64,000 bases of DNA from Planctomycetota bacterium (lineage in GTDB: Bacteria > Planctomycetota > MHYJ01 > WSZJ01), in assembly GCA_038060895.1 (NCBI GenBank), contig JBBTCT010000001.1:128001-192000 (forward strand). The letters are read 5' to 3'. This document shows positions 6,870 to 61,998 of the stretch, piece after piece. Under the pieces are notes generated by a model. It was given only the letters and a program-made list of their open reading frames with translations, made no database searches and was not told where the DNA came from. How positions within the stretch are numbered: position 1 is the first letter of the stretch; the number at the start of each line of letters is the position of its first letter. Both the position numbers and the translations under genes were made by a program.

Positions 6870-8789
6870 ATGCAGGACATCTTCAATATCGTCATCGGGA
6901 CCGCGGGGCACATCGACCACGGCAAGTCCACGCTGGTCCGCAAGCTGACCGGCATCGATCCCGACCGCCTCCCGGAGGAAAAGGAGCGCGGCCTCACCAT
7001 CGACCTCGGCTTCGCGCCCTTCACGCTCAAGGACGGCCGCCGAATCGGGCTCATCGACGTCCCGGGGCACGAGAAGTTCGTGAAGAACATGGTCGCGGGG
7101 GCAACGTCGCTCGACGGCGTCATCCTCGTCATCGCGGCGGACGACGGGATCATGCCGCAGACGCGGGAGCACCTGAACATCCTGCGGATCCTGGACGTGA
7201 AGCGCGGGATGGTGGCACTGACGAAGATCGACATCGCGGAGCCGGACATGCTGGAGCTGGTGGAGGACGAGATCCGGCAGATGCTGCAGGGGACGTTCCT
7301 CGAGGCGGCGCCGATTTTCCGGGTCAGTTCGCACACCGGCGCGGGTTACGAAGCCCTGATCGACGGGATCAACAAACTGGCGGTCGCGACGCCGCCGCGC
7401 ACGACCGAGGGCGTATTCCGGATGCCGATCCAGCGCGTCTTTTCGGCCAAGGGGTTCGGGACGATAGCCACAGGAGTCCCGATCACCGGGAAGGCGAAGC
7501 TCGGCGACACTGTTGAAGTCCTCCCGCTCGGAAAATCGTCGCGCATCCGCGGCCTCCAGGCCTACAAGGGCGATGTCACCGAAATCCGCGCCGGACACTC
7601 TTCCGCCGTCAACCTCTCGGACATCGATCACGCCGAGGTCATCCGCGGCATGGTCATGGCCACCCCCGGATACCTGCACGCCGCCGATCACGTCAACGCG
7701 CGCTTCCGCTTCCTGAACGAGGAAGTTGGCCGGCTGAAGAACGGCGCCGCGGTGCGCCTGCACACGGGGACGGTGGAAGGCCTCGGGACGCTCAACCTCG
7801 TCGAAGGGCAGGATCTCGTAGCGGGAACCGACGCGCTGATCCAGATCCGGCTCGCCGAGCCGGTCGTCGTCGCGGCCAACGACCTTTTTGTGCTGCGCCT
7901 CCAGTCGCCGACGGTGGTTCTCGGAGGCGGGCGAATCCTGTCATCGACGCTCGGCCGGCCGAAGATGAACCGGGCAAAGCTGGTGGAAGATCTCAAGGGA
8001 GCGGAAGCGTCATTGGGTGACTCACGCAAGACCCTCGAGCACCTGATCCGCCGGGCCGGCTCGGACCCCGTGTCGCTCGACTCGATCGCGAAGCAGTCGC
8101 TTCTTCCTATCGCTCAGGCATGGGACCTCGTCGGCGGCCTCAAGCAGAAAGGGCTGGTCACGGAGCTGCCCGAGACGAAGCGGCTCCTGCACCGCGACGG
8201 CCTTGCCGCCGCTGCGGGCGAAATCACGAGGACGCTCGAGGAGTTCCACAAGACGAATCCGGTTTCGGTCGGCATGGAGAAGATTCCTCTTCGCACCGCC
8301 AGCGGCCTGGACCCGGAGGCGTTCGAGGCGGGGCTTGCGCTCGCGCGCAATTCGGGGGGCGCGGCCGAGGAGCGCGGGCTGTGGCGCAAAGCGGCCCACG
8401 CGGTCGCGCTGACTGCGGAGCAGGAGAAACTGATCGAGGCGGCGCGCAAGCTGCTGCTTGCCGACAAGTACGCGACGCCTCGCGTGGACGAAATGGCCGG
8501 GAAGCTCGGGAAGACGCCGCAACAGGTGGACAAGCTTCTCAAGCTGATGATGCAGACCGGCGAGATCGTGAAGCTGAAGGACGACATCCTCCTGCACCGG
8601 GACGCCATTGCGGAAGCGGTGGAGACGGCGCGGAAACTGTGTACGGAAAAGGGAGAAGTCGGCCCGAGCGAGTTCCGCGACGCGATGAAGACCAGCCGGA
8701 AGTACGTGATTCCGCTGCTGGAGCATCTGGATGCAATCGGGGTGACGGTCCGGCAGGGGGACAAGCGGGTGCTCCGGGCTTCCCCGTGA
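6870..8789 (+). CDS. selB: Selenocysteine-specific translation elongation factor SelB
   Basis: 'IGTAGHIDHGKS', 'DRLPEEKERGLTIDLGF', 'IDVPGHEKFVKNM' and the C-terminal SECIS-binding winged helix 'FRDAMKTSRKYVIPLLEHLD...R.GD.R'. Confidence 0.96.
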   Translation: MQDIFNIVIGTAGHIDHGKSTLVRKLTGIDPDRLPEEKERGLTIDLGFAPFTLKDGRRIGLIDVPGHEKFVKNMVAGATSLDGVILVIAADDGIMPQTREHLNILRILDVKRGMVALTKIDIAEPDMLELVEDEIRQMLQGTFLEAAPIFRVSSHTGAGYEALIDGINKLAVATPPRTTEGVFRMPIQRVFSAKGFGTIATGVPITGKAKLGDTVEVLPLGKSSRIRGLQAYKGDVTEIRAGHSSAVNLSDIDHAEVIRGMVMATPGYLHAADHVNARFRFLNEEVGRLKNGAAVRLHTGTVEGLGTLNLVEGQDLVAGTDALIQIRLAEPVVVAANDLFVLRLQSPTVVLGGGRILSSTLGRPKMNRAKLVEDLKGAEASLGDSRKTLEHLIRRAGSDPVSLDSIAKQSLLPIAQAWDLVGGLKQKGLVTELPETKRLLHRDGLAAAAGEITRTLEEFHKTNPVSVGMEKIPLRTASGLDPEAFEAGLALARNSGGAAEERGLWRKAAHAVALTAEQEKLIEAARKLLLADKYATPRVDEMAGKLGKTPQQVDKLLKLMMQTGEIVKLKDDILLHRDAIAEAVETARKLCTEKGEVGPSEFRDAMKTSRKYVIPLLEHLDAIGVTVRQGDKRVLRASP

Positions 8790-14642: not shown

Positions 14643-15618
14643 CGCGTTCCGCCAGGCCCGCCGGCGCCGCCGCAAGCCCTGCCCTCTCGCGTCCTCCCGG
14701 TGTAATCTTCCACCTCCGGTGCATCCACTGCCACTGCTCCGGGGCCTTGCGGATGTGTTTCTCCAGCGCCGCGGTCGTCTCGCGCGTCAGCCGCGCAACT
14801 TCCTGGTCCCGGGGCGCAGCCAGGTCGGGACGGATTGGCTCGTCGAAGTAAAGCGTGTACCGGAAAGCTCTCCCTTCCCGAAGGCACGCGAAGGGGACCA
14901 TCGGCGCCCCTGTCGCGCAGGACAGCAGCGCGGGAGTCGTGACCGTCAGGATGTCCCGCCCGAAAAACGGCACCAGCATCCCCGTATCGCGCGGGTTGCG
15001 ATCCGTCAGGAGAGCGACAATCGACCCGGTGCGCAGCGCGCGGATGAGCCCGCGGAACGCGCCGTTCATGGCAACCGTGGTGTGGCCGCGCAACTGCCGC
15101 TCGCGTTCCATCCTCTCGTGCAGGCGCGCGTTGCGGGAGCGGTGCGCGATGCTCGTCAGCTTCAAATCGTTGCGCCCGGCCCACTGCGCCCCCAGCTCCC
15201 AGTTCCCCAGGTGTCCCGAAACGAAGATCAGGCCCTTCCCTTCTCGCGCCGCCTTGAGTACCGGCCTCTCTCCCGAAATCTTCACGATCTCCGACCACCC
15301 GCGGCTCTTGGCGCTTCGCGGCGCCTTCAGCATTTCCGCGGCCATCTGTCCGAAGTGCTCGAAGCAGGCGACGGCGGTGCGCGCGGCCCAGGCCTCCGAC
15401 TTTGCAGGGAACGCGGCGCGGAGCTGTTCTTCGGCGCGGCGGCGGTAACGCGGAAGAGCCACGGCGGCAGCGCGCCCGGTCGCGCGTCCGAGTTCGAGCG
15501 CGGCGGCGAGGGGCAGCGCGTGCACCGGAAGAAGCGCGAAGTTGAGGACCTGCATCTCGACCGCGCGCGCGACGCTGCCGAGGAGGCCTTCACCGAAGCG
15601 GAAGATTTTGACGGTCAT
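14626..15618 (-). CDS. Lipid A late acyltransferase family protein (LpxL/HtrB-like), paralogue 1
   Basis: 'GHLGNWE' catalytic motif, 'VPFFG', 'PEQWQWMHRRWK'. Confidence 0.88.
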   Translation of the reverse strand: MTVKIFRFGEGLLGSVARAVEMQVLNFALLPVHALPLAAALELGRATGRAAAVALPRYRRRAEEQLRAAFPAKSEAWAARTAVACFEHFGQMAAEMLKAPRSAKSRGWSEIVKISGERPVLKAAREGKGLIFVSGHLGNWELGAQWAGRNDLKLTSIAHRSRNARLHERMERERQLRGHTTVAMNGAFRGLIRALRTGSIVALLTDRNPRDTGMLVPFFGRDILTVTTPALLSCATGAPMVPFACLREGRAFRYTLYFDEPIRPDLAAPRDQEVARLTRETTAALEKHIRKAPEQWQWMHRRWKITPGGRERAGLAAAPAGLAERATSGR

Positions 15619-15686
15619 TTCGAGCGTTTCATTCTAGAAGGAGGCTCCACTGGCGCGTACCCCAAGTTTTCCGGAGGAATTCGCGT

Positions 15687-16685
15687 TCATTTTCGGACGG
15701 CCTCCGGACCTGCCCGGGGCGCCTCCCAGGTTCTCCTGGTTCCGTCCGGCGTGCTGCGCCAGCGGCGATGGGCCCAGAGCCATTGCTCGGGCCGTTCCCG
15801 GATCGACCGTTCGAAAATCGCGGTGTACCAGGCGGAGATCGACTTGACGTCTGCGTCGAGGTTGCCCGTCCGTGCCGGTTCCGGATCAGAATGACAACCG
15901 AAGACGTACCGGAATGGCGCCTCGCGGTACGTGTAGAACGGGAGGAGGCGGCATCCGGTCTTGAGCGCAATGACCGCGGGGGTCGGCCACGTCGATGCAA
16001 GCCGGCCGAAGAACGGCACGAACACGCCGTCTCTTCCCGCATTCTGGTCGGACAAGATCACCCCGATCCGGCCGGCCCTCACGTCACGCATCAGTTCCCG
16101 CAGCCCGCCTCCCTGCTTGACGATTTTCCCGCCCGTCGCCCCGCGGGCGGAATTCAGGAATTCATCCACGAAGGGATTCCGGAACGGCCGCGCGATGCTC
16201 GTCAGCGGATAGCCCAGGAGGTTCATCACGATCCCCGCCAGCTCCCACGAGCCCTGGTGCGCGCCAACGAAAATCGCTCCCCTGCCGCTCTTCAGCGCCT
16301 CATCCAGGATCTCGCGCCCTTCGAGCCGCACATACTTCGGCCAGTTTTCCTTTGCGACCCGCCTCCGGAGCACCATGCCTTCGATGATGGAGGAGGCGAA
16401 GTGCTCGAACATGTGCCTCGTGATCTGGCGGGCTCGCCGGGGCTCGTATCCGGCGGCGACGAGGTGCTCGATTGCCCGGGGACGATGCCGGGCGTCTACG
16501 CGAAAGGCAATTCTTCCCGACAGCTTGGAAAGGCCTCGCAGCATCGGGTCGCCCATGCCGAGGAGAAGCGACACCGCGAGCCGGGGCCCTGCGTACTGGA
16601 GCCAGTACGCCGCGCGCACCAGGGGCGGCATGTCGTCCGGCCGGCTCCCGCGACGGGCCGGCGCGGCCTCAGGCGGTTGCGCCAT
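15687..16685 (-). CDS. LpxL/HtrB-like acyltransferase, paralogue 2
   Basis: 'AHQGSWE', 'SDQNAG..GVFVPFFG', 'PEQWLWAHRRWR'. Confidence 0.88.
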   Translation of the reverse strand: MAQPPEAAPARRGSRPDDMPPLVRAAYWLQYAGPRLAVSLLLGMGDPMLRGLSKLSGRIAFRVDARHRPRAIEHLVAAGYEPRRARQITRHMFEHFASSIIEGMVLRRRVAKENWPKYVRLEGREILDEALKSGRGAIFVGAHQGSWELAGIVMNLLGYPLTSIARPFRNPFVDEFLNSARGATGGKIVKQGGGLRELMRDVRAGRIGVILSDQNAGRDGVFVPFFGRLASTWPTPAVIALKTGCRLLPFYTYREAPFRYVFGCHSDPEPARTGNLDADVKSISAWYTAIFERSIRERPEQWLWAHRRWRSTPDGTRRTWEAPRAGPEAVRK

Positions 16686-17598
16686 CGGAGGCCACCGCCT
16701 CCCCGGGTTTCGTCTTCCACCGTCGGTGGATCCACATCCACTGTTCCGGCGCAGCCAGGATCCGCTTCTCCAGCGCCTCCGTCAGCCGCCGGGTCGCTTC
16801 CAGCACCGCCTCGGGCATGGGAAGCGTGCCGTCGGGGACGAACGGTTCTTCGATCTGGATGAGGCTCCGCCCGCCGGGGAGCCGCGTGACGGCAAACCCG
16901 ACGATGGGCGCGCCGGATTTGATCGAGAGCAGCGCGGGAGCCTTGATGGTCGAGGCGTCCTGTCCGAGGAATGGGACGAACACCCCGTGATGGCGCGCGT
17001 CCTGGTCCACGTAAAGCGTCAGGACCCCGCCGTCGCGAAGCGCCTGGAGTCCTTCCTTCATGGCGCCGGCGCGCCAGATCACGCGGGTCCCGACTTGTTT
17101 CCAGAAGTCCTCGAAACCGCGATTCATGAGCGGGTTGTCCATCGCACGGCGAACGACGTTGACGTTGTAGCCGCGCGCCGCCATGGCGACGTTGAAGACT
17201 TCCCAGTCGCCGAAATGTCCGCTGACGGCGATGACGCCGCGGCCCATCGCACGCGCGCGCTCGAGGCGGTCGAGCCCTTCGACTTCGATTCGCTTGTCCC
17301 AGCTGCCGCGTGCCCGGTCGCGCGGGATGCGCACGGTCCGGATAATCGTCTCCATCAGGTGGTAGAAAGATCCCTCGGCGACGTCCTTTCCGCGACGCCC
17401 GAGAACCCGGGTCGCTTCCTTCTTCGCAATCGCTCCGCGCTTCCGCATCACGGACCATAGCAGGCCCGACAGGACGCGCCCCATTCCGAGGGCGAGCGCT
17501 TCGGGGAGCAGCAGCGTTGCATACTGGCCGCCGCGTCCGAGCCAGTACTGCAGGCGCCAGGCGGCCGACATGAAGACGCCGCCGGAGTGCGAGTTCAT
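16669..17598 (-). CDS. LpxL/HtrB-like acyltransferase, paralogue 3
   Basis: 'GHFGDWE', 'VDQDA..GVFVPFLG', 'PEQWMWIHRRWK'. The ATG at 17598 is preceded by TATCCT-N6. Confidence 0.88.
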   Translation of the reverse strand: MNSHSGGVFMSAAWRLQYWLGRGGQYATLLLPEALALGMGRVLSGLLWSVMRKRGAIAKKEATRVLGRRGKDVAEGSFYHLMETIIRTVRIPRDRARGSWDKRIEVEGLDRLERARAMGRGVIAVSGHFGDWEVFNVAMAARGYNVNVVRRAMDNPLMNRGFEDFWKQVGTRVIWRAGAMKEGLQALRDGGVLTLYVDQDARHHGVFVPFLGQDASTIKAPALLSIKSGAPIVGFAVTRLPGGRSLIQIEEPFVPDGTLPMPEAVLEATRRLTEALEKRILAAPEQWMWIHRRWKTKPGEAVASDGATA

Positions 17599-17653
17599 GC
17601 GGACAGGATACACCTTGCGAGGCCCGCGACCTAGACGGACCCGTCGGCGACGG

Positions 17654-18553
17654 TCACGCGGTCCGCGGCCGCCACCGCCGGTGCATCCAGAGCCACTGTC
17701 CCGGCGTCTCGCGGATGTGCTCTTCGAGCTTCCCGGCCATGCGCTCCGTCGCACGGCGCACCGCTTCTTCAGGCTCCCCCGAAGGATCGGCCAGGAACAA
17801 CGGGTCGAACACCAGGCGGATGCGCCCGTCGGGCAGCCTCGGCGCGGCGAAGGTCACGATCGGCGCGCCGTACCGGACGGAAAGGACCGCGGGAGTCCGG
17901 TACGTCGCCGCGAGGCGCCCGAACCACGGCACTTCAATCGAGTCCTGCCGGGCGTACTGGTCGGCGAGAATCGCGAGGAGCTCGTTTCTGCGAAGTGCCC
18001 TCAGTGCGTCGCGCATGGCGCCCTTCTTGTCGATCGTCGCCTGGCCGGTCGCCCGGCGGAACGACTCGAGCTTCCGGCGGATGAACGGGTTGCGCGGCGG
18101 CTTGATGACCGTGTTGACCTTGTATCCCTGAAGCGACATTCCCCACCCGGCCGCCTCCCAGTTGCCGAGGTGGGCGCCGACGACGATGACGCCTTTGCCC
18201 AGTTTCAGCGCCGCATCGACGTGCTCGAGCCCCTCGAACACGATCGCCTTCCGCCACCGTTCGCCGCCGAAAATCCGGTGGGCGCGCACCATTTCAACCA
18301 TGACTTCCCCGAAGTGCCGGAATGAAGCGCGGGCCGCCTGCGCGCCGGAGGGACCGAGGGCTGCCACGGCATTGTCGCGTGCCGTGCGGTTCCGCCCGCG
18401 GAGCACGAGCCGGGCGCAGGAGCCAAGGAAGCGTCCGCAGGCCCGGGCCAGCCCCTCGGGCAGGATGAGAACCCCGGCGCGCGCCACGAGGAAGAAGACG
18501 TAAACGAGCAGCGAAACGGGCGTGCCGAGGACGGGGTGGTCTTCGAGCTTCAC
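17654..18553 (-). CDS. LpxL/HtrB-like acyltransferase, paralogue 4
   Basis: 'AHLGNWE', 'ADQ', 'VPWFG', 'PGQWLWMHRRWR'. Confidence 0.88.
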   Translation of the reverse strand: MKLEDHPVLGTPVSLLVYVFFLVARAGVLILPEGLARACGRFLGSCARLVLRGRNRTARDNAVAALGPSGAQAARASFRHFGEVMVEMVRAHRIFGGERWRKAIVFEGLEHVDAALKLGKGVIVVGAHLGNWEAAGWGMSLQGYKVNTVIKPPRNPFIRRKLESFRRATGQATIDKKGAMRDALRALRRNELLAILADQYARQDSIEVPWFGRLAATYRTPAVLSVRYGAPIVTFAAPRLPDGRIRLVFDPLFLADPSGEPEEAVRRATERMAGKLEEHIRETPGQWLWMHRRWRPRTA

Positions 18554-21971: not shown

Positions 21972-22907
21972 CTAACTCGTTGTCGCTTCGCCGGTTGCGG
22001 CGGGCATTCCCTTGCGCTGGGTCTTCCAGCGCCGATGCACCCAGAGCCACTGCTCCGGGAATCGCCGGATCCAGTCCTCAATCGTCTTTGTGAAGCGAGC
22101 CGTCGATTTCTCCAGGTCCGCTTCCTGGTCCACCGATCCCTGCGCGACGAACCCTTCGCCGATTTCGACGAGGAACTTCCCGTCACGCTGACGCATCGCC
22201 GCGAAAGGCACGATCGGCGCCCCCGTGCGGTGCGACAGGAGCGCGGGCGATTTCAGCGTCGAGGCTTCGCGCCCGAAGAACGGAACGAACACGCCCTGGT
22301 CGCGCGCATCCTGGTCCACCAGCATCGCGAGCACTTCCCCGCGCCTCAGCACGTGAATCGCCTCGCGCAGCCCGCCCCACTTCTCGATGACATGGATTCC
22401 CGCACTCGCGCGGGCGTCGTTCAGCAGCTCCTGGACACCGGGATTCTCGATCGGCCTCAGGAGCCACGTCGGCGGGTGCCCCAGGTGGCCGAGCACGACC
22501 GCGCCGATTTCCCAGTTCCCAAGGTGCGCACTCACCGCGATCACTCCCTTGCCCAGCGCCCGCGCAGCCCGGAGATTTTCTTCGCCCACCACGGTGACGC
22601 GGCGGCGGAAGCGGGCGCGGGAGAACATCGAGGTGATCTGCATGCACTCGAAGAGGATCTGGCCGAACTCGAGGACCGATTCTGCGGCGATCCGGCCGCC
22701 GCCGGGGCCGAGGGCCAGCTCCGCCTGGTCCGCTGCAAACTTGAGCTTTCCCTTCACGATCGCGGCGGCCAGGCGACCGAGCCAGCGGCCGCCGGAGCGG
22801 GTGAGGGGCTGGGGAAGGAACTCGATGAAGTCGCGCAACCGGTCGGCGATTCCGGTGACGAACTGGTTGAAGACGGGGCCCCAGACGGGGTCGCGCTCGA
22901 GTTTCAC
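21972..22907 (-). CDS. LpxL/HtrB-like acyltransferase, paralogue 5
   Basis: 'AHLGNWE', 'LVDQDARDQGVFVPFFG', 'PEQWLWVHRRWK'; GTG start at 22907. Confidence 0.88.
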   Translation of the reverse strand: MKLERDPVWGPVFNQFVTGIADRLRDFIEFLPQPLTRSGGRWLGRLAAAIVKGKLKFAADQAELALGPGGGRIAAESVLEFGQILFECMQITSMFSRARFRRRVTVVGEENLRAARALGKGVIAVSAHLGNWEIGAVVLGHLGHPPTWLLRPIENPGVQELLNDARASAGIHVIEKWGGLREAIHVLRRGEVLAMLVDQDARDQGVFVPFFGREASTLKSPALLSHRTGAPIVPFAAMRQRDGKFLVEIGEGFVAQGSVDQEADLEKSTARFTKTIEDWIRRFPEQWLWVHRRWKTQRKGMPAATGEATTS

Positions 22908-39517: not shown

Positions 39518-39630
39518 CGAAAACCGGCAGCCGGCCGGCACCATAACTCATTTCCTGAGCTGCGCTTGCGACGCACAGCTCGATTTTTCAGGACTGACTA
39601 CGGAATCCGGCTAGAATTCTCCACTTCACG

Positions 39631-39750
39631 CGCCGAATCCGCTTCCCACAGGAACCGGAACGGGGGACCCAAGTCGCAGGGGTGAACTCCTCCTCAGGGA
39701 GGACAGGGCTATCCGGAAGGCCCGAACCCGTCAGCTAACCCCGCAGGCGT
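39631..39750 (+). ncRNA. Cyclic di-AMP riboswitch (ydaO/yuaA)
   Basis: Conserved blocks CGCCGAATCC...GGGGGACCCA...GGGGTGAA...AGGG...CCCGAACCCGTCAGCTAACCCCGCAGGCG, directly upstream of a ydaO/kimA homologue. Confidence 0.92.
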
Positions 39751-39802
39751 CGATCCGGGGCAACCCGCAACCGGCGGGGGCTCCACGTTCAGGAGCGCCT
39801 TC

Positions 39803-41815
39803 GTGGGTAATCCCGCCCCTTTCTTTGCCCGGACTCAGTCCAGCGCGCCCGAGCCGCCGAAGGGCGGCTGGTTTCGCCGTACCCTGCGATTCCTCGTCGG
39901 CCCGCCACGCAACCTGCGCGACCGGTCCCTCTTCACTCACCTTTCCCTCGTCGCATTTCTTGCGTGGGTCGGGCTCGGGGCCGACGGGCTGTCGTCCTCG
40001 GCCTACGGGCCCGAGGAAGCATTCCGGACGCTCGGACAGCACTCGTACCTCGCGCTGGCGCTGGCGCTCGTGATGGCGACGACTGTCCTCGTGATCGCGG
40101 CGGCCTACAGCCGCGTTATCGAGCAGTTCCCGCACGGCGGCGGCGGGTACGTCGTCGCGACGAAACTGCTCGGCGAGCGCGCGGGACTGGTTTCGGGCTC
40201 GGCGCTCCTCGTCGACTACGTTCTCACGATTACCGTCTCTATCGCGGCCTCCGGCGACGCGCTCTTCAGCCTCCTTCCTCACGCCGCGCTCGCGTGGAAG
40301 CTCCCTGCCGAAGGAGTGTTCCTGGGTGTACTCGTCCTCCTGAATCTTCGAGGGGTGAAGGAGTCGGTCCTCGTCCTCACGCCGATCTTTCTCGTTTTCG
40401 TCATCACGCACCTCGTTCTGATCGTTGGCGGCGTCTTTGCACACGCGTCGGACGCGCCGGCCCTGATGAGCTCTGCATCCACGAGCCTGACGGCGGACCT
40501 CGCCGCCATCGGCGCAGGCGGCATCCTGCTCCGATTTCTTCACGCGTACTCCCTGGGCGGAGGCACGTACACGGGAATCGAGGCCGTTTCGAACGGTCTT
40601 TCAATCATGAGAGAGCCGCGGGTGCAGACGGGAAAGCGGACGATGCTGTACATGGCGCTGTCGCTGGCATTCACGGCGTCGGGACTGCTCCTTTGCTACC
40701 TGCTCTGGAAGGTCACGCCCGTCGCCGGCAAAACGCTGAACTGGGTGCTCGCGGAAAAGTTCGCTGGCCAGGGCTCCGCCGGGCAGATTTTCGTCTGGGT
40801 CACCATCGCTTCGGAGGGCGCTCTCCTCATCGTCGCGGCCCAGGCCGGCTTCCTCGACGGCCCTCGCGTCCTCGCCAACATGGCCGTTGACTCCTGGGTC
40901 CCCCGCCGCTTCGCCGCCCTCTCCGACCGCCTCACCACCCAGAACGGCGTCGTCCTCATGGGCGCCGCATCCCTCGGGGCGCTCCTCTATACGCAAGGCG
41001 ACATCCGCGCCCTCGTCGTCATGTACAGCATCAACGTGTTCCTGACCTTCTCGATGACGACCCTGGCGATGTGCGTCTTCTGGTTCCGCGAACGGCGCAA
41101 GGATCCGAAATGGAAGCGGCGCGCGGCGATCCACGCGGTGGCGTTCAAGTTGTGCGCGACCATTCTTTGCGTGACCGTGTTCGAGAAATTCGGGGAGGGC
41201 GGCTGGCTCACGCTGGTCATCACGAGCGGCGTCATCTTCCTGTGCGTCCTGATCCGGCGGCATTACAACGCCGTGACCAGCCGCCTGGCGCTTCTGTACC
41301 GCGGTCTGCTCGACGCGCCCACCGCCCCCGAACGGGCTTCCGGCATGATCGACCCGGCGCAGCCCGTGGCCGCGATCCTCGTCGCAGGATTCGGCGGGCT
41401 CGGGCTCCACACCTTCCTCGGCGCCTTCCGCGATTTCCCGGGGCAGTTCAAGGGCGCCGTTTTCGTTTCCGCCGGCGTCATCGACTCCCAGCAGTTCAAG
41501 GGCGAAGGGACCATTGAATCCCTTCGTACGAACGTCCGGGAGACGCTGAAGAAGTACGTCGATTTCGCCCGGAACCAGGGGATCCCGGCCGAGTACCGCA
41601 TGGGGTTCGGGACCGACGCAGTTGAGGAGTGCGAAAAACTCTGCGCTGGCGTCTCCCGGGAGTTTCCGCGTTCCGCCTTCTTTGCCGGAAAGGTGCTCTT
41701 TGAGCGCGAACGCTGGTACCAGCGCGTCCTGCACAATGAGACGGCGTTTGCGATCCAGGGAAGGCTTCAGTGGGCGGGTAAGACGGTTGTCATCGTGCCA
41801 GCGCGCGTGACGTGA
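39803..41815 (+). CDS. kimA: KimA/YdaO-like APC-superfamily potassium transporter
   Basis: 'GADGLSSSAYGPEE', 'FPHGGGGYVVA..LLG', 'LLVDYVLTITVSIA', 'YTGIEAVSNG', C-terminal 'LHNETA'; sits behind the ydaO riboswitch. Confidence 0.85.
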   Translation: MGNPAPFFARTQSSAPEPPKGGWFRRTLRFLVGPPRNLRDRSLFTHLSLVAFLAWVGLGADGLSSSAYGPEEAFRTLGQHSYLALALALVMATTVLVIAAAYSRVIEQFPHGGGGYVVATKLLGERAGLVSGSALLVDYVLTITVSIAASGDALFSLLPHAALAWKLPAEGVFLGVLVLLNLRGVKESVLVLTPIFLVFVITHLVLIVGGVFAHASDAPALMSSASTSLTADLAAIGAGGILLRFLHAYSLGGGTYTGIEAVSNGLSIMREPRVQTGKRTMLYMALSLAFTASGLLLCYLLWKVTPVAGKTLNWVLAEKFAGQGSAGQIFVWVTIASEGALLIVAAQAGFLDGPRVLANMAVDSWVPRRFAALSDRLTTQNGVVLMGAASLGALLYTQGDIRALVVMYSINVFLTFSMTTLAMCVFWFRERRKDPKWKRRAAIHAVAFKLCATILCVTVFEKFGEGGWLTLVITSGVIFLCVLIRRHYNAVTSRLALLYRGLLDAPTAPERASGMIDPAQPVAAILVAGFGGLGLHTFLGAFRDFPGQFKGAVFVSAGVIDSQQFKGEGTIESLRTNVRETLKKYVDFARNQGIPAEYRMGFGTDAVEECEKLCAGVSREFPRSAFFAGKVLFERERWYQRVLHNETAFAIQGRLQWAGKTVVIVPARVT

Positions 41816-56269: not shown

Positions 56270-57625
56270 ATGATTCGATCCTTTTCTCTGGTCCTCGTTC
56301 TCCTCTCCGCGGGCCTCGCCGCACGGGCCGAAGACCCGCCCCTTCGCGGCGTCGCGGCTTGCAACAAGGCGCTCAAGCTCGCCGGCGAGGGGAAGCCCGC
56401 CGAAGCGCTGAAGGTCCTCGAAGCGGCCAAGGGGACGATGGACGCGGAGGACGAGTGGCTCTGGTGGGGCAACAAGGGAAGCGCCCACCGGGACCTGCGG
56501 CAGGACGCCGAGGCCCTCCCGGCGTACCAAAAGGCCGTCGAACTCAAGCCCGACTGCTGGTTCCAGGTCGAGTACGCGACCCTGCTTCACGAGTTCGGAC
56601 GGTTCGACGAAGCGCTCAAGGTGCTCGATAAACCCGTGCAGAAGGGTTACGCAGAGAGCGCGGCCCGCCTGCGCGCGGTGGTCACGGGGCCGTACCGCAA
56701 GCGCTGGCCGCACGCCTACAAGAAGCTCGAGTATTCCGCCAAGGCGGGGCACTACCAGGTCGTCTCGGATGTGGGGGTAGACGCTGCGGAAATGGACCGG
56801 ATCGAGGCCGCGGCCGCGAAGCTGAACCCGGCCGAGAAGGTCAATATTTCAAAGCTCGAGGCCCTCTTCAAGCCAAACCCCCAGATCGTGAACATCGCCA
56901 ATCTTCTGGAGCTGACGCGCGTCGAGTACATGCGGCTGTCGGGAATGAAAGAAGCCCAGTGGCCCAAAGGCAAGGTGAGCCGGGTCTTCTACTTCCAGGC
57001 GCAGCAGGAGTTTCTCGACTTCGCTTCGGCGGCGGGAGGCGAGAAGGAGCGGGAGAGCACCGTCGGGTTCTTCGACCCGAACTTCAAGGACATCCTGCTC
57101 TACAACACGCCGGGCGGCGGCGAGGCGTTCGGGATTGCGAAGGAGACGCTGGACACGTTCTGGCACGAGGGGTGGCACCAGTTTTTCGACGTGCTGACCT
57201 CGCAGACTCCGACCTGGATTGACGAAGGGATCGCGGAATACGTGGGGAAAGGCGTGATCTCCAAAGACGGCACCAAGCTGGCGCTGGGCCAGCTGGTCAA
57301 GGAAGAGGGCGAGTTCGTCACGAGGTACGAGAAGGTGAAGGGGCTCGTGGCAGACCGCAAGCACGTCCCGTTTCGCGAGTTCTTCAAGTACGACAACAAG
57401 AAATGGAATGCAGGGGACACGCTCGCGCATTACGCGCAAGCCTGGTCGATCGTGTACTACGCGATGCGCGGCGACAACGCGGCGTTCCAGAAGGACTTCC
57501 GCAATTTCTTCCTGGAGCTGGTGAAAGGGACCCCCTGGCTCGACGCGGTCGCATCGATTTTTCCGGACGCGAAGCTGGACGCTTACGAAAGCCAGTGGCG
57601 GGTGTTCATCGACAAGCTCAAGTAG
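56270..57625 (+). CDS. Secreted TPR + DUF1570-like zinc metallopeptidase
   Basis: Signal peptide, TPR, 'HEGWHQF', 'PTWIDEGIAEY', 'YAQAWSIVYY'. Confidence 0.8.
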   Translation: MIRSFSLVLVLLSAGLAARAEDPPLRGVAACNKALKLAGEGKPAEALKVLEAAKGTMDAEDEWLWWGNKGSAHRDLRQDAEALPAYQKAVELKPDCWFQVEYATLLHEFGRFDEALKVLDKPVQKGYAESAARLRAVVTGPYRKRWPHAYKKLEYSAKAGHYQVVSDVGVDAAEMDRIEAAAAKLNPAEKVNISKLEALFKPNPQIVNIANLLELTRVEYMRLSGMKEAQWPKGKVSRVFYFQAQQEFLDFASAAGGEKERESTVGFFDPNFKDILLYNTPGGGEAFGIAKETLDTFWHEGWHQFFDVLTSQTPTWIDEGIAEYVGKGVISKDGTKLALGQLVKEEGEFVTRYEKVKGLVADRKHVPFREFFKYDNKKWNAGDTLAHYAQAWSIVYYAMRGDNAAFQKDFRNFFLELVKGTPWLDAVASIFPDAKLDAYESQWRVFIDKLK

Positions 57626-57902
57626 CGTCGGTGCGGGGGCCGAACCTCTGCGCCGCCCGCGCCTTCGCCCGGGCCGCTTCAACACCACGGTCGCGAGCTG
57701 GCGTCGCCGTCACGAGGCCGTCGACCAGCCGCCGCGCGACGAGGAAAACCTCGTTCACGGAGCGCTCGAACGCAGCCTCGTTCGCCTTTGAAGGCGCGTT
57801 GAAGCCGCTGATCTTCCGGACGAACTGAAGCGAGGCCGCGCGGATTTCGTCGTCGGTGGCTGGCGGCTCAAAATTGAAAAGCGTGCGGATGTTCCGGCAC
57901 AT
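57618..57902 (-). CDS. DUF2277 family protein
   Basis: 'MCRNIRTLFNFEPPATDDEIRAASLQFVRKISGF..PSKANEAAF'. Confidence 0.9.
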   Translation of the reverse strand: MCRNIRTLFNFEPPATDDEIRAASLQFVRKISGFNAPSKANEAAFERSVNEVFLVARRLVDGLVTATPARDRGVEAARAKARAAQRFGPRTDAT

Positions 57903-57917
57903 GGGGGATTCTCCGTG

Positions 57918-58415
57918 TCAGGCCACGCCGCCCGCGGGCTGCATCAGGGCGACGACCGCGCCGGTCGGGTCCTTGAAGATGCAGAAGCGACCGACGTTGG
58001 GGATGTCCGAGGGCGGATGGATGTGAGTCCCGCCGAGCTCGGCGATCTGCTTCCATGCCGCATCGATGTCGCGCACTGCGATGTACCCGCACCAGTGCGT
58101 CGGCACCTGCGCCGGGAACTGCGGCTCGGTCATCTTCAGGATGCCGGCGGCGGACTTCCCGCCCGCCTTCGTCACGCGATACGGCGCCTGGCCCGGCCCC
58201 ATCGGCCAGTCCTCGTGCGTCCACCCGAGCAGCTTCTCGAAGAACGTGAGCGCGGCCACGTCGTCGCGCGTCATCAGCTCGTTCCACATGAACTCGCCGT
58301 GTCTCGGTTTAGGGTTCATGCTGGAAGAAGCGGGCGCGGCGGCTTTCTTGCGCGCGGGTTTGCGGGCGACACTTCTTGCCGTCTTCATTGGAGATTTCCG
58401 GGACCTTTTCGCCAT
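57918..58415 (-). CDS. VOC/glyoxalase family protein with a basic N-terminal tail
   Basis: 'GEFMWNELMT.D...A..FF..LLGW', 'W.GYIAV.DID', 'PP.DIPNVGRF....DPTGA'; GGAGG RBS before the ATG at 58415. Confidence 0.88.
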   Translation of the reverse strand: MAKRSRKSPMKTARSVARKPARKKAAAPASSSMNPKPRHGEFMWNELMTRDDVAALTFFEKLLGWTHEDWPMGPGQAPYRVTKAGGKSAAGILKMTEPQFPAQVPTHWCGYIAVRDIDAAWKQIAELGGTHIHPPSDIPNVGRFCIFKDPTGAVVALMQPAGGVA

Positions 58416-58461
58416 GAACACCCTCCTATCTTTGGATGATTGCGTCGACGCTACGAGAACT

Positions 58462-59229
58462 TTATGTGGGAACTCCCAGCACCACAGCAACGCGCCAAAC
58501 GGATTGGGGCTTGGCGACTCCCTTCAACTCAACTTGCTCCTTGCTCTTTGCCAAGTTGTTTTGTGGCAGCTCAGGCTCAAAAGCACTCAGAAGACCTTCC
58601 GCATCAATGAGAAGCCCGAAGTCAGGGGCGGCCTGCTGCAGGCGTGCCGCCATGAAGATCGTTCGCCCTACGGGTGCGAGCCAGGCACCGATCTGCGGGT
58701 TTCCACCGCAGAAACGAACCTCGATCGGTCCGCGTGTGACCCCGAATCGGCCATCGACCATGTCCGAGTCGTTCAAGATCAGCGCGCCACCAAGGTTGAC
58801 CGTTCGCGTCTTGGGATTCCTGTGGGGCCGACGATTTGCTCGCACTGTCTGGTAAGCGACAAGAAGATTGATGATGCCCTTGGCAGCTTCATATTTGTCG
58901 GAGGAGTTCGGAAACCGGTCGCCGAGGTTGAACATCAGAAAAAAGCCATCACCCGTGGCGGTTACCAGGTCGGGAGGGAATTGGCGAATTAGAGCAAGAA
59001 GTTCAAAAAGCAAGTCGGACTGGGCAAGCCACGAGGGATCCGGAGTCGCCTTTTCGTCCATGACCTTTGAAGTGCTGGATTTCATGTCCCACGAGACGAC
59101 AAGTGTGTCTGCCCACGCTTCGAACATGGCTTGGTCGGGACTCGTCAAGGTGGGGATGTGACCAAGCGGCTTGCTTCGGTCACGTCCGACGATTCCAAGC
59201 CATGAGCCGAAGATGTGTGGGTTAAGCAT
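58462..59229 (-). CDS. Stand-alone class III nucleotide cyclase-like protein (low GC)
   Basis: 'VVSWDMKSST', 'TGDGF', 'GRTIFMAARLQ', 'VELKGV..P..VW' follow the class III cyclase order; AT-richer than the flanks. Confidence 0.7.
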   Translation of the reverse strand: MLNPHIFGSWLGIVGRDRSKPLGHIPTLTSPDQAMFEAWADTLVVSWDMKSSTSKVMDEKATPDPSWLAQSDLLFELLALIRQFPPDLVTATGDGFFLMFNLGDRFPNSSDKYEAAKGIINLLVAYQTVRANRRPHRNPKTRTVNLGGALILNDSDMVDGRFGVTRGPIEVRFCGGNPQIGAWLAPVGRTIFMAARLQQAAPDFGLLIDAEGLLSAFEPELPQNNLAKSKEQVELKGVAKPQSVWRVAVVLGVPT

Positions 59230-59308
59230 GGTCACCTGAATTCTCAAGGGCAAGGAGGACAAACACTTTAACTCCCACTGGTGGGTGACCGTTCGGGATT
59301 GCCGGGCG

Positions 59309-59602
59309 TCAAGATGTCGATCCTCCCGATATCGCCGGCACGAACGCGATCTCGTCCCCTTCCTTCAACTCCACGAGGAGCGACTTCATCTCGCGCGTGT
59401 TGTTCTCGTTGAGGAAGCAGAGCACGTGCGGCCGGAACTTCCCGTTGTCCTCGCACAGGTGAAATCTCAGCGCGGGCGCGGCGAGAAACGTGGCCTCGAT
59501 CGCCCCGGCGAGCGTCGCCGCCTCCACGCGGAGTTTCTTCGACCCCACGATGGCGTGCAGCATCGAGGGGATCAGGACGTCCACGGAGACGCTCTTCGCC
59601 AT
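59309..59602 (-). CDS. MoaD/ThiS-family ubiquitin-like carrier protein
   Basis: 'V.IPS.L', 'G.FRPHVLCFLN', 'LKEGDEIAFVPAISGG' followed by an STS tail; starts 2 nt after the upstream stop. Confidence 0.9.
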   Translation of the reverse strand: MAKSVSVDVLIPSMLHAIVGSKKLRVEAATLAGAIEATFLAAPALRFHLCEDNGKFRPHVLCFLNENNTREMKSLLVELKEGDEIAFVPAISGGSTS

Positions 59603-59604
59603 GG

Positions 59605-60729
59605 CTACACGACGGCGGCGCTGACCGAAAGGACGGGGGGCAGGTACGAGGCGAGTGCCTTCCAGGAGCGCCCGGCGTCCGCGCTGTTGAAGACCTGGCC
59701 GGTGCCGGTCCCGACGTAGAGGCCGCACGGGTCCAGGGAATCGGACGACATTCCCTCGCGCAGGACATTGAGGTACGCGCCGCTTGCCGGCAGTCCCTTG
59801 GACATGGACTTCCAGCCGCCGCGCGGTCCGTTCCAGCGGAACACGCGGAACGCCCCGCTCGTGGCGCGGTAGGCGTAGTTGTTCTTCTTCTCGAGCGGGA
59901 CCGTGAAGCATGTATCGGGGTCGTTCCAGTCGAGAGCGAGCCCGAATCCGTAGTCCGTCGGGAGCCCCATCTCAATCGAATTCCAGGTCTCGCCGTGGTC
60001 GTCCGTGCGGAAAACGCCGACGTGATTCTGCTGGTACGCGCGCCCCGGCACCGCCGGGTGCAGAATGAGTTTGTGCACTCAGGTCCCGACGTCCGTGACC
60101 TTCGGCGCGCCGGGATACTTCGCGACCGCCTTGTTGATCGGCTTCCAGTTCTTCCCCCCGTCGTCCGTCCGGAACGCCCCCGCGGCCGAAATCGCCACGT
60201 ACATCCGCTTCGAATCGTGCGGGTCGAGCTGGATCGTGTGGCAGCACATCCCGCCCGCTCCCGGGCTCCACTGCTTCCGCGTCGGGTGCTCATTCAGGCC
60301 CGGCACCGGCTCCCAGGTCTTCCCTTCGTCCTCGCTCCGGAACAACCCCGCGGGCGCCGTCCCCGCGTACAGCACGCCCTTCTCCCCCTTCCGACCAGGC
60401 TCGATGTGCCAGACCCTCTCGGCCTTCGAGATGCCCCATTTCTTGTAGATCTTTTCGTGGGACGGAAGCGGCTTCGGCGGAATCGGCGGCTTCTTCGCGC
60501 CTGTGAACTTCGCGTCCTTCAGGCCGGCGCTGAAAGTAGAAGCGGCGAACACGTCGCTGACCGCGGCGGCGTGGATCTTCGGCGAGCGGCGGGCATCGAC
60601 GGTGGCGTGGTAGATCGACCATCCCTCGAGGAACGGTCCGCGCCGCTTCCACTCGCGGCGCTTTGCGGACGACTCGAACACGAACAGCCCGCGCTTGGTG
60701 CCGACGCAGACGACGACCTTGTCCGCCAT
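59605..60729 (-). CDS. BNR/Asp-box (sialidase-like) beta-propeller, predicted selenoprotein (U217)
   Basis: Track ORFs 60079-60729 and 59605-60078 are in the same frame and separated only by TGA at 60079-60081, giving 374 aa. Asp-boxes 'SEDEGKTW', 'TDDGGKNW', 'TDDHGETW', 'SADAGRSW' occur on both sides. A SECIS-like hairpin follows the TGA. Confidence 0.75.
60025..60066 (-). promoter_or_regulatory. Candidate bacterial SECIS element
   Basis: Starts 12 nt after the UGA: lower stem AUUCUGC/GCAGAAU, upper stem CCCGGC/GCCGGG, apical loop GGU beginning 26 nt after the UGA. Confidence 0.65.
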
Positions 60730-60798
60730 GAAAGCCTCCGGGATTCTCGGTTCGGTGTGAGGTTACGCGACGAGGTAGCGCATGGATTCTCTCCGCTC

Positions 60799-61224
60799 CT
60801 ACTCGGACTTTGCTTTCTTCTCACGCATCGCATCCACGCTCATCGGCCCGGAACCCTTGCAGGCCATGAACAGGAAGAGGAAGCAGTAGAGCACCGCCGG
60901 TTCGCCGCCGTTCGTTCCGGGGAGGAACCTCGAGATGCCCTCCACCTTGCTGTTGACGACGTGGAACTGCCAGTAAGCGACGGCCATGGTGCCGCTGGCG
61001 AGGAAGGCGGCCGTGCGGCCGAAGAAGCCGATGGCGATCATGAGGCCTGTCACCAGCTCGATGATCCCGCCGGCCTTTCCCTGCGAGTCCAGCTGCGAGA
61101 ACGACATCTTCGAGAGCACGCCGAAGACTTTTTGCATGCCGTGAAACGCGAACATTCCGCCCGAGACGATGCGAACCAGGGCGTAAACGCGGTCCGCTAT
61201 GGGAGCCAGCATGGAACCCAGCAT
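60799..61224 (-). CDS. DoxX family membrane protein
   Basis: 'RIVSG.MF..HG.QK.FG', 'AG.IELV.G', 'AAFLASG.MAVAY', 'NGGE.AVLYCF.FL...G.GP.S.D'. Confidence 0.9.
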   Translation of the reverse strand: MLGSMLAPIADRVYALVRIVSGGMFAFHGMQKVFGVLSKMSFSQLDSQGKAGGIIELVTGLMIAIGFFGRTAAFLASGTMAVAYWQFHVVNSKVEGISRFLPGTNGGEPAVLYCFLFLFMACKGSGPMSVDAMREKKAKSE

Positions 61225-61461
61225 GTATCCCTCCTCCGTTCAGGCATTGGCGCGATTCACGAGTGCTCAGGAACATCCCGCGGCGAATGAGGCTCCCTTT
61301 TACCCTGAAGCGCCCTCAACGTCACGGTCAGGTTCCCGTGAAGTCGGAGGTCGGGCCAGAAGCAGGGTGGAGCTGCCCAGGGAAGTTCGCCGGTGATTTC
61401 GCGGACTTCCGCGTCCGCCGCGCTGCAATACCGCTCTCGCGCTTATGATCGCCGGCAAAGA

Positions 61462-61998
61462 ATGAAGCGCCGCAAGCCCCCGCAGGACCACACCTCCGCC
61501 GCTCCCCCCGAGATCGCCTGCCGCGTCATCGGCCACGTGCGTTCCCCCTACAAGGAGCGCTTCGGCACCCCGCGCCAGCCGTCCGTCACCGAGCAGACGC
61601 TCGAGGACCGCGCGCTCGAGGCGAGCATCGAGCTCCTCCCGGGGCAGAACTTTGAGCAGGCCCTCAAGGACCTCGCGGGATTCGAATACATCTGGGTGCT
61701 CGCCTGGCTGCACCTGAACGAGGGATGGAACCCGCAGGTGATTCCGCCGCGCGGTCCCGAGGTCAAGCGCGGGCTCTTCGCCACCCGCGCGCCGCACCGG
61801 CCAAATCCCATTGCGCTTTCGGCTCTTCGGCTCGTCGGCATCGAAGGCCGGATCCTCAGGATTTGCGGCATCGACCTGCTCGACGGCACGCCGGTGCTCG
61901 ACATCAAGCCCTACATTCCCTATTCCGACGCGTTTCCGGACGCGAAGGCCGGCTGGCTCGAAGGGTTGGATCCCGGCGCACCCGACCGGTGGAAGTAA
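61462..61998 (+). CDS. trmO: tRNA (t6A37)-N6-methyltransferase TrmO/TsaA
   Basis: 'IG.V.SPY.E.FG.PRQ', 'RGLFATRAPHRPNPIALS', 'GIDLLDGTPVLDIKPY'. Confidence 0.92.
   Translation: MKRRKPPQDHTSAAPPEIACRVIGHVRSPYKERFGTPRQPSVTEQTLEDRALEASIELLPGQNFEQALKDLAGFEYIWVLAWLHLNEGWNPQVIPPRGPEVKRGLFATRAPHRPNPIALSALRLVGIEGRILRICGIDLLDGTPVLDIKPYIPYSDAFPDAKAGWLEGLDPGAPDRWK

What the first reader, a model, noticed from the sequence alone, without database searches (positions are those of the whole stretch)
57618..61224. Co-oriented DoxX - Sec-propeller - MoaD/ThiS - VOC - DUF2277 cluster: possible S/Se-transfer or redox-detox system
Seen: all genes are on the minus strand, and the propeller stop is 2 nt from the MoaD/ThiS start (tight coupling). 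DoxX is upstream. VOC and DUF2277 (N-terminal MCRN) are downstream, separated only by a low-GC cyclase gene. No MoaE, ThiG or MoeB gene is adjacent. Known: MoaD/ThiS proteins carry sulfur as a C-terminal thiocarboxylate or act as ubiquitin-like modifiers, and DoxX and VOC proteins are linked to thiol/electrophile stress. Inference: the propeller's Sec/Cys could accept or process the carrier's C-terminus, making a pathway independent of Moco and thiamine.
Basis: partly seen in the sequence, partly recalled or inferred. Interest (0 to 1): 0.75.

Follow-up and report, generated by a model that had tools for sequence, protein, structure and literature searches.

The report
Selenocysteine propeller paired with ubiquitin-like carrier
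A bacterial gene usually labelled a sugar-cutting enzyme appears to read a stop codon as the rare amino acid selenocysteine and sits beside a small ubiquitin-like sulfur-carrier gene in many bacteria, which points to an unstudied sulfur-handling enzyme pair.

Summary
The genes are as described, but the conserved unit is two genes, not five. The propeller has TGA at codon 217. Of 120 listed homologs, 106 have Cys there and 14 (one the window's own) end at residue 216. Of 120 C-half hits, 59 begin at residue 218. selB is in the window and a SECIS-like hairpin follows the TGA. So it is very probably a selenoprotein, and it is absent from the 119-family 2026 catalogue. A SAMP/CysO-like gene flanks the propeller in 34 of 39 genome loci and 7 of 12 plasmid loci. 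DoxX (1 of 39) and DUF2277 (0 of 39) are not linked; VOC-fold genes (11 of 39) belong to a variable stress-gene neighbourhood; the cyclase looks inserted. Two corrections: the carrier ends GG-STS, so GG is masked, and C-C-H is not conserved. The conserved pocket is W107, H164, S181, H219, Q234, H236, R324 plus a Cys/Sec that swaps between positions 217 and 182. Best reading: a thiol/selenol enzyme that takes sulfur from its own carrier.

The parts
59605..60729 (-). Seven-bladed Asp-box beta-propeller, 374 aa when TGA217 is read as Sec; YP_299179.1/PDB 3B7F family; begins directly with the first strand (no signal peptide seen). Core part.
   Evidence: 3b7f, E 3.5e-63; pLDDT 92.9; TM 0.89; Z 49.5, rmsd 2.0 over 354 residues
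60079..60081 (-). In-frame TGA at codon 217, aligned to the family's Cys (T-U-V-H-K); predicted selenocysteine
   Evidence: 106 of 120 homologs have C and 14 of 120 end at 216; 59 of 120 C-half hits start at 218; selB in the window.
60044..60058 (-). SECIS-like hairpin: 6-bp stem, GGU loop 26 nt after the UGA, -10.3 kcal/mol
   Evidence: passes my coding of the bSECIS rules of PMC13188914; 62 of 1386 window TGA triplets also pass; 709 of 2000 synonymous resamples pass; folding z-scores -0.6 to +0.2, not significant. Supportive, not decisive.
59309..59602 (-). SAMP1/CysO-like beta-grasp protein (MoaD/ThiS family), 97 aa, ending GG-STS. Core part.
   Evidence: below the SAMP1 and MoaD cutoffs; best matches CysO 4n6e/3dwg, SAMP1 2l52/3po0
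60799..61224 (-). DoxX-family membrane protein; co-oriented neighbour, not a conserved partner
   Evidence: a DoxX hit in 1 of 39 genome loci
58462..59229 (-). Stand-alone class III nucleotide-cyclase-like gene with foreign codon usage; probable insertion
   Evidence: no PADLOC hit; no tblastn hit in 47 loci
57918..58415 (-). VOC/glyoxalase-fold protein with a basic N-terminal tail; loose neighbour
   Evidence: other VOC-fold genes near the propeller in 11 of 39 genome loci and two in L054
57618..57902 (-). DUF2277 protein; not a conserved partner
   Evidence: 0 of 39 genome loci
6870..8789 (+). selB, selenocysteine-specific elongation factor, in the same window (about 51 kb away)
   Evidence: TIGR00475, 344.4 bits against a cutoff of 242.25

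Best explanation
A two-gene module: a cytoplasmic seven-bladed Asp-box propeller enzyme and its own SAMP/CysO-like ubiquitin-fold carrier. In this lineage the propeller is a selenoprotein. SHOWN: gene layout, Cys/stop pattern at 217, selB, fold, conserved adjacency, conserved residues. INFERRED mechanism: (1) the carrier's tail after GG is trimmed by a peptidase, probably a JAMM enzyme encoded elsewhere; (2) a housekeeping MoeB/MoeZ-type enzyme converts GG-COO- to thiocarboxylate; (3) the GG end enters the pocket on one face of the propeller, formed by W107, H164, S181, H219, Q234, H236, F262 and R324; (4) Sec/Cys217 (or Cys182 in the Asp217 subfamily), helped by the three histidines and possibly a metal they bind, passes the sulfur to a small electrophilic substrate, as CysM/CysO and BexX/CysO do. 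The module often sits among electrophile-stress genes (VOC/PhnB, HxlR, DinB, YciI, SRPBCC, here DoxX), so detoxification or modification of a small molecule is the likely setting. DoxX, VOC and DUF2277 are variable neighbours and the cyclase is an insertion. Approximate confidence by layer: Sec 0.93; functional pair 0.85; sulfur-transfer chemistry 0.4.
For: Sec. Split halves carry consecutive GenBank locus tags (FD180_3627/3628; HY716_04160/04165). Stop-217 rows interleave with Cys rows: 6 changes, at least 3 forced, on a quick tree of 74 rows. Pro-Ala at 225-226, which can encode the hairpin, occurs in 51 of 59 stop-type halves against 17 of 56 close Cys forms (not corrected for relatedness). 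Pair: 34 of 39 and 7 of 12 loci, both gene orders, in Acidobacteriota, Planctomycetota, Chloroflexota, Chlorobiota, Pseudomonadota, Bacteroidota and Actinomycetota. Distance matrices correlate (Spearman 0.85 over 41 pairs; 0.56 within 33 genome pairs). The carrier's closest structures are CysO and SAMP1. GG is invariant in all 23 rows of A2 even where a tail follows. Pocket: invariant residues in 21 rows spanning the subfamilies; all 5 Asp217 rows have Cys182 and none of the 16 Cys217 rows does. Neighbours.
Against: No activating (E1) or trimming (JAMM) motif in 51 family loci or the window (recalled motifs, so limited sensitivity). The propeller has no carrier nearby in 5 of 39 genome loci and 5 of 12 plasmid loci. 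One carrier (L056) lacks GG altogether. 3B7F has Asp217 and Ser182, with its nearest Cys at 237, so the swap is not universal. The DNA of the other stop-217 homologs was not seen, so their stop codon is not verified as TGA. The hairpin is largely dictated by the peptide. The genome sample is narrow: 32 of 39 loci are Acidobacteriota at 38-42% identity and none has the stop. The distance correlation is expected from shared ancestry alone. No substrate is identified.
Confidence: 0.42

Rival explanations
1. The propeller is the carrier's processing or conjugating enzyme. A Sec/Cys-His dyad attacks the bond after GG, trimming the tail, removing the carrier from targets, or forming a seleno/thioester that is passed to an amine: E1-independent ligation.
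For: The window's carrier and all 16 homologs at 64-90% identity have variable 2-28 residue tails after an invariant GG, while the 6 at 43-57% end at GG. No JAMM or E1 motif nearby. Natural carrier-GG-SRPBCC and carrier-GG-DinB fusions exist (P0146, P0165).
Against: 31 of 33 complete carriers in genome loci end exactly at GG and need no trimming. Tails are common across the wider SAMP/CysO-like hits (83 of 172 with a tail, 76 without, 13 unscored), which fits ordinary JAMM trimming. A nucleophile that moves between 217 and 182 is unusual for a peptidase (own knowledge).
Confidence: 0.2
2. A metalloenzyme or metal/redox protein with a His3 + Sec/Cys/Asp site. The beta-grasp protein is a non-covalent subunit or chaperone, and its C-terminus is not used.
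For: H164, H219 and H236 are invariant, and position 217 takes only C, U or D; such an exchange is typical of metal ligands (own knowledge). Tails mask GG in this clade, one carrier lacks GG, and 10 of 51 family loci lack a nearby carrier.
Against: GG is kept in 33 of 33 complete genome-locus carriers and 6 of 7 plasmid carriers, which needs a reason.
Confidence: 0.2
3. A dedicated five-gene DoxX-propeller-MoaD-VOC-DUF2277 S/Se-transfer pathway, as first proposed.
For: Co-orientation with gaps of 2-79 nt, and no terminator-like site between the genes on the minus strand. VOC-fold genes recur in 11 of 39 loci. Loci of the stop-217 clade were not available, so a clade-specific operon is not excluded.
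Against: DoxX 1 of 39, DUF2277 0 of 39 (132 of 168 selected ORFs scanned). No tblastn hit for the window's DoxX, VOC or DUF2277 in 47 loci. All 39 genome loci use Cys, so selenium cargo is not required.
Confidence: 0.08
4. A glycoside hydrolase or sialidase, as database names say, with a coincidental neighbour.
For: Asp-box repeats and fold similarity to GH74 (TM about 0.55); source names such as 'exo-alpha-sialidase'.
Against: The family is described as functionally uncharacterised (PMC2716378 passages). The invariant non-structural residues are His/Trp/Ser/Gln/Arg; the only invariant Asp residues in 21 rows are Asp-box D134 and D190. Sec and carrier linkage are unexplained.
Confidence: 0.05
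5. The TGA is a nonsense mutation (pseudogene) or a genuine split into two proteins.
For: TGC/TGT to TGA is one substitution; codon 218 is GTG, a possible start; hairpin folding is not significant.
Against: The same break recurs in 13 other N-halves at 65-85% identity and 59 C-halves at under 90% mutual identity, interleaved with Cys forms. Both halves keep host codon usage. A split would delete the family's invariant Cys. selB is present.
Confidence: 0.05

Closest known systems
YP_299179.1 / PDB 3B7F family (Reut_B4987, 'glycosyl hydrolase, BNR repeat')
   Same: Same seven-bladed Asp-box fold (TM 0.89, Z 49.5, 33-34% identity); W107, H164, S181, H219, H236 and R324 shared.
   Different: 3B7F has Asp at 217; the window has TGA/Sec. 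Its function is listed as not known (PMC2716378 passages).
CysM-CysO and BexX-CysO sulfur-carrier/acceptor pairs (PDB 3DWG, 4N6E)
   Same: The carrier is closest to CysO by profile and fold. An acceptor enzyme beside the carrier with the activating enzyme elsewhere is the proposed way of working (BexX borrowing MoeZ is recalled, not checked).
   Different: The acceptor here is a beta-propeller, not a PLP enzyme or a ThiG-like barrel. No cysteine synthase or JAMM gene is adjacent. Sulfur transfer is not shown.
Archaeal SAMP1 and eukaryotic Urm1 (dual sulfur carriers and protein modifiers)
   Same: Beta-grasp fold, TM 0.74-0.77 to SAMP1; diglycine motif.
   Different: Scores 45.2 bits against the NF041918 cutoff of 60; GG is masked by a tail; no E1 nearby; conjugation untested.
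Catalogued prokaryotic selenoprotein families (119 in Table 1 of PMC13188914)
   Same: Meets the Cys/TGA-pair logic used to define predicted families, with selB and a bSECIS-like hairpin.
   Different: No propeller, BNR, sialidase or WD40 family is listed in that table, in deep-Sep text and supplements or in BSepDB text and its held supplement.
Propellers that bind a C-terminal carboxylate (sortilin Vps10 with neurotensin; KLHDC2 with di-Gly degrons)
   Same: Recalled lead only: a top-face Arg and Ser hold a peptide C-terminus; here R324 and S181 are invariant, and sortilin shares Asp-boxes.
   Different: These are non-catalytic eukaryotic receptors with other blade numbers or repeats; not tested here.

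Membership tests
Bacterial selenoprotein | In-frame UGA aligned to a conserved Cys of homologs | tested here: met
   106 of 120 homologs have C at 217 and none has another residue
Bacterial selenoprotein | The same stop recurs in independent genomes with both halves intact | tested here: met
   13 other N-halves end at 216; 59 of 120 C-half hits start at 218; two pairs have consecutive locus tags
Bacterial selenoprotein | The stop in those other genomes is UGA and they carry selA/selB/selD | not testable with these tools
Bacterial selenoprotein | Sec machinery in the same genome | tested here: met
   selB above cutoff. selA, selD and selC were not seen in the 64 kb window; the rest of the genome was not available.
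Bacterial selenoprotein | bSECIS hairpin 16-37 nt after UGA with G in the loop | tested here: inconclusive
   Passes (4.5% of window TGA triplets do), but 35% of synonymous resamples also pass; z-scores not significant
Bacterial selenoprotein | Selenium in the protein | not testable with these tools
   Needs 75Se labelling or mass spectrometry
YP_299179.1/3B7F Asp-box propeller family | Seven-bladed Asp-box fold with full-length sequence similarity | tested here: met
GH74/GH33 glycoside hydrolases | Conserved catalytic acids (GH74) or Arg triad with Tyr/Glu (GH33); features recalled | tested here: not met
   Invariant residues in 21 rows include one Arg, no Tyr or Glu, and Asp only in Asp-boxes; single propeller at 13-19% identity to GH74
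Canonical MoaD / ThiS (Moco, thiamine) | Score above the equivalog cutoff and linkage to MoaE or ThiG | tested here: not met
   TIGR01682 18 bits vs 66.15; PRK11130 22.7 vs 94; MoaE motif in 1 of 51 loci, ThiG motif in 0
ThiS/MoaD/SAMP/CysO sulfur carriers | Beta-grasp fold with a diglycine motif | tested here: met
ThiS/MoaD/SAMP/CysO sulfur carriers | Free C-terminal GG available for activation | tested here: not met
   Ends GG-STS as encoded; needs trimming. 31 of 33 complete relatives in genome loci do end at GG.
ThiS/MoaD/SAMP/CysO sulfur carriers | Thiocarboxylation by an E1-like enzyme and sulfur delivery to an acceptor | not testable with these tools
   Biochemical
Described prokaryotic Ubl neighbourhoods (Table 1 of PMC1779556; JAB/E1/E2 operons) | Adjacent E1, E2, JAB, MoaE, ThiG, AOR or cysteine synthase gene | tested here: not met
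   Rows 1-11 read: none pairs a Ubl with a propeller; searches found no E1, JAB or ThiG gene here
Anti-phage systems in PADLOC-DB 2.0 | Match to a defence protein model | tested here: not met
   0 hits for the 6 cluster proteins at E up to 0.01

The most novel reading that the evidence does not exclude
The propeller is a new class of seleno/thiol enzyme that acts directly on its ubiquitin-like partner. It cleaves the tail after GG to form a carrier-selenoester and passes the carrier to a target or small molecule without E1, ATP or JAMM. That would be a widespread two-gene ubiquitin-like conjugation or sulfur-transfer system hidden under 'sialidase' labels, and the first propeller-fold selenoenzyme in the catalogues checked.
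Probability: 0.15. Interest if true: 0.92.

Novelty: new variant of a known kind. Interest (0 to 1): 0.7.

Why it matters
It adds a selenoprotein family in a fold missing from the 119-family catalogue. Records of it are split into two hypothetical genes, so it can be corrected in annotation at once. Selenocysteine usually marks a catalytic redox or metal-binding residue, so it points to the active site of a very large family: 7984 of 8000 scored candidates at E up to 1e-20, often named 'exo-alpha-sialidase', with one solved but unexplained structure. The conserved carrier gives that family a testable partner, and gives many orphan MoaD/ThiS-like genes a role outside Moco and thiamine.

Tried and rejected
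Complex prediction of a native Cys-form pair (L008) was not available: queue full, nothing folded. It gives no evidence either way. Cluster look-up for the taxa of stop-217 proteins was switched off. The single genome scan found no close or stop-217 relative; 8 of its 47 loci (L040-L047, partial 21-32% matches without the motifs) were dropped before counting. DNA search of plasmids and protein search of phages found nothing. Rfam found nothing in the cluster, and no tRNA lies in the window. No sigma-70-like promoter was found. A PDB sequence search for the cyclase gave only chance hits. A second Atlas query for the propeller returned no answer. The profile comparison A2 vs A4 is circular because they share members, and was ignored. 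The HMM was built from 33 of the carriers it counts; these were first found independently by clustering. The careful tree did not finish; the quick tree was used. Literature: 10 searches (searches failed, 95, 109) found no paper on the pair or on a Sec propeller. Haft and Tolstoy 2025 (PMC12013261) is not held; I saw its families only as rows in the review's table. The review has no readable supplement. The BSepDB supplement is about 4.0 million characters and may be cut. PA1355/PA1356 as Pseudomonas names for the pair is recalled and unverified; one passage (PMC11538994) links PA1356 to biofilm, and I give it no weight. Rejected: C-C-H as acceptor, selenium as cargo, the cyclase as a member, glycosidase function.

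Full report
Observation. The six genes are present and co-oriented on the minus strand as described: DoxX 61224-60799, propeller 60729-59605, MoaD/ThiS 59602-59309 (2 nt after the propeller stop), a low-GC gene 59229-58462, VOC 58415-57918 and DUF2277 57902-57618. The low-GC gene resembles class III cyclases and has foreign codon usage (GC3 0.64, negative codon score), so I treat it as an insertion. No MoaE, ThiG, MoeB or JAMM gene was found in the window. Two details of the finding are wrong. The carrier ends GG-STS, not GG. C162 and C163 are conserved in only 70% and 24% of 94 aligned sequences.

The TGA is very probably selenocysteine. Read with TGA=U, the gene gives 374 aa. Of the 120 homologs listed, 106 have Cys at 217, 14 end exactly at residue 216 (one is the window's own N-half; the others are 65-85% identical), and none has another residue. 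A search with the C-half, limited to 86-275 aa proteins, listed 120 hits. Of these, 59 begin exactly at 218, 33 begin further downstream, and 28 begin at scattered upstream positions, at most 3 per position. Two N/C pairs carry consecutive GenBank locus tags, and 7 of the 13 other N-halves share a listed contig length with a C-half (indirect). On a quick tree of 74 N-halves (the window's duplicate, short rows and most distant homologs left out), stop-217 rows need 6 changes, at least 3 forced, so Cys and stop forms interleave. selB lies in the same window, above cutoff.

The SECIS evidence is weaker. A 6-bp hairpin with a GGU loop lies 26 nt after the UGA. It passes my coding of the bSECIS rules from PMC13188914 (section 5 read), as do 62 of 1386 window TGA triplets and 0 of 39 distant Cys-form loci. 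However, 709 of 2000 synonymous resamples also pass, and folding z-scores are not significant. The Pro-Ala that can encode the stem is enriched in stop-type halves (51 of 59 vs 17 of 56), uncorrected for relatedness. I did not see the DNA of the other stop-217 genes, so their codon is unverified; the closed metagenome collection stayed unchecked.

What is conserved. The genome scan gave 47 loci; 39 are full-length family members and 8 partial matches were dropped. A MoaD/ThiS-like gene follows the propeller in 34 of 39. In 12 plasmid loci, hand-picked for taxonomic spread from 59 matching records (41 of them Ralstonia, none fetched), it is adjacent in 7: upstream in 5 and downstream in 2. It is absent in three Rhodobacterales and two Streptomyces loci. 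Propeller and carrier distances correlate, as shared ancestry would also give. DoxX appeared near the propeller in 1 of 39 loci and DUF2277 in 0. VOC-fold genes appeared in 11, HxlR regulators in 9, and DinB, YciI and SRPBCC-type genes in 3 each (132 of the 168 ORFs selected were scanned). The window's own DoxX, VOC, DUF2277 and cyclase had no tblastn hit in 47 loci. The sample is biased: 32 of 39 loci are Acidobacteriota and none is of the stop-217 clade, whose named members are Planctomycetota. A clade-specific operon is therefore not excluded. From recall, HxlR-type sensors, DoxX and VOC genes are typical of electrophile-stress regulons.

Anatomy. The model (pLDDT 92.9) is a seven-bladed Asp-box propeller matching PDB 3B7F (TM 0.89; Z 49.5, next best 27.6). 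Passages of PMC2716378 call that family functionally uncharacterised. Across 21 sequences spanning the subfamilies, W107, W154, H164, S181, H219, Q234, H236, F262 and R324 are invariant. Position 217 is Cys in 16 rows (including the window's U) and Asp in 5; all 5 Asp rows have Cys182 and no Cys217 row does. 3B7F itself has Asp217, Ser182 and Cys237. From the strand positions and general propeller topology, most of these residues fall at first-strand starts and second-to-third-strand loops, that is on one face. The carrier is closest to CysO and SAMP1 and scores below the MoaD and SAMP1 cutoffs. Its GG is invariant; the 16 closest homologs all have variable tails, and the 6 more distant ones end at GG. 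In genome loci 31 of 33 complete carriers end at GG. One plasmid-set carrier lacks GG.

Mechanism. The best reading (0.42) is an acceptor enzyme with its own sulfur carrier, working like CysM-CysO or BexX-CysO. The tail is trimmed and the carrier activated by enzymes encoded elsewhere; the GG thiocarboxylate is delivered into the His/Arg/Ser pocket; Sec/Cys passes the sulfur to an electrophile. Every chemical step is inferred. Rivals are a carrier-processing or E1-independent ligating enzyme (0.2), a His3-Sec/Cys/Asp metalloprotein with a non-covalent beta-grasp subunit (0.2), the five-gene pathway (0.08), a glycosidase (0.05) and a pseudogene or split gene (0.05). The complex prediction that would separate the first three could not be run.

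Comparison and novelty. Table 1 of PMC13188914 (section 7, parts 1 and 2 of 3 read) lists 119 families and no propeller. Term searches in that paper, in deep-Sep (PMC12013277: text passages and 4 supplements) and in BSepDB (PMC13326102: passages and 1 held supplement, possibly cut) found no propeller, sialidase, BNR or WD40 entry. NCBIfam of June 2026 has no model above cutoff for the propeller. Table 1 of PMC1779556 (passages) and a passage search of PMC1949818 describe no Ubl-propeller neighbourhood. Other papers were seen only as search listings. Haft and Tolstoy 2025 could not be read, and subscription literature is not covered.

Verdict. The feature is real, but smaller and sharper than reported: a probable new selenoprotein family and a conserved propeller-carrier pair inside a variable stress-gene neighbourhood. 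New variant of a known kind; interest 0.7.

Noticed in passing
window 6870-8789 (+): selB, Sec-specific elongation factor, above the TIGR00475 cutoff; supports Sec decoding in this genome.
   Followed up: yes
window 58462-59229 (-): Stand-alone class III cyclase-like gene with low GC3, inserted in the run; Asp residues sit in W-D-M-K-S-S-T and G-D-G, resembling the two metal-binding motifs (recalled); no PADLOC hit.
   Followed up: partly
window 39621-39764 (+): c-di-AMP (ydaO) riboswitch, 85.9 bits, directly upstream of an amino-acid-transporter-like gene at 39803-41815.
   Followed up: no
window 14626-18553 and 21972-22907 (-): Five LpxL/LpxP-like lipid A acyltransferase paralogs, four in tandem.
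   Followed up: no
window 61393-61998 (+): TrmO (TsaA) tRNA methyltransferase, divergent from DoxX; no tblastn hit in 47 loci.
   Followed up: partly
proteins P0146 and P0165: Natural fusions of this carrier type through GG to an SRPBCC domain and to a DinB domain.
   Followed up: no
protein P0182: Looks by eye like a collapsed remnant: a propeller-like N-terminus followed by a degenerate carrier.
   Followed up: no
L055:227-4813 (Chondrinema plasmid): The carrier-propeller pair lies beside XdhC, MoaE, SufU and cysteine desulfurase; the only locus of 51 with a MoaE motif.
   Followed up: partly
L056:5084-5395 (Nonomuraea): Carrier gene directly after the propeller ends without the diglycine.
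   Followed up: partly
L049:3554-6149 (Fuscovulum plasmid): Propeller without a nearby carrier, directly downstream of a glutamine-synthetase-family gene.
   Followed up: no
L054:1-5766 (Pseudomonas plasmid): Carrier-propeller pair flanked by two VOC genes, YciI, YbaK/EbsC and a sigma factor.
   Followed up: partly
L001-L036, carrier genes: Acidobacterial-type carriers have a conserved Cys (F-F-[AV]-C) near, but not at, the position of the window clade's invariant C62 (H-V-L-C); a possible second thiol on the carrier.
   Followed up: no
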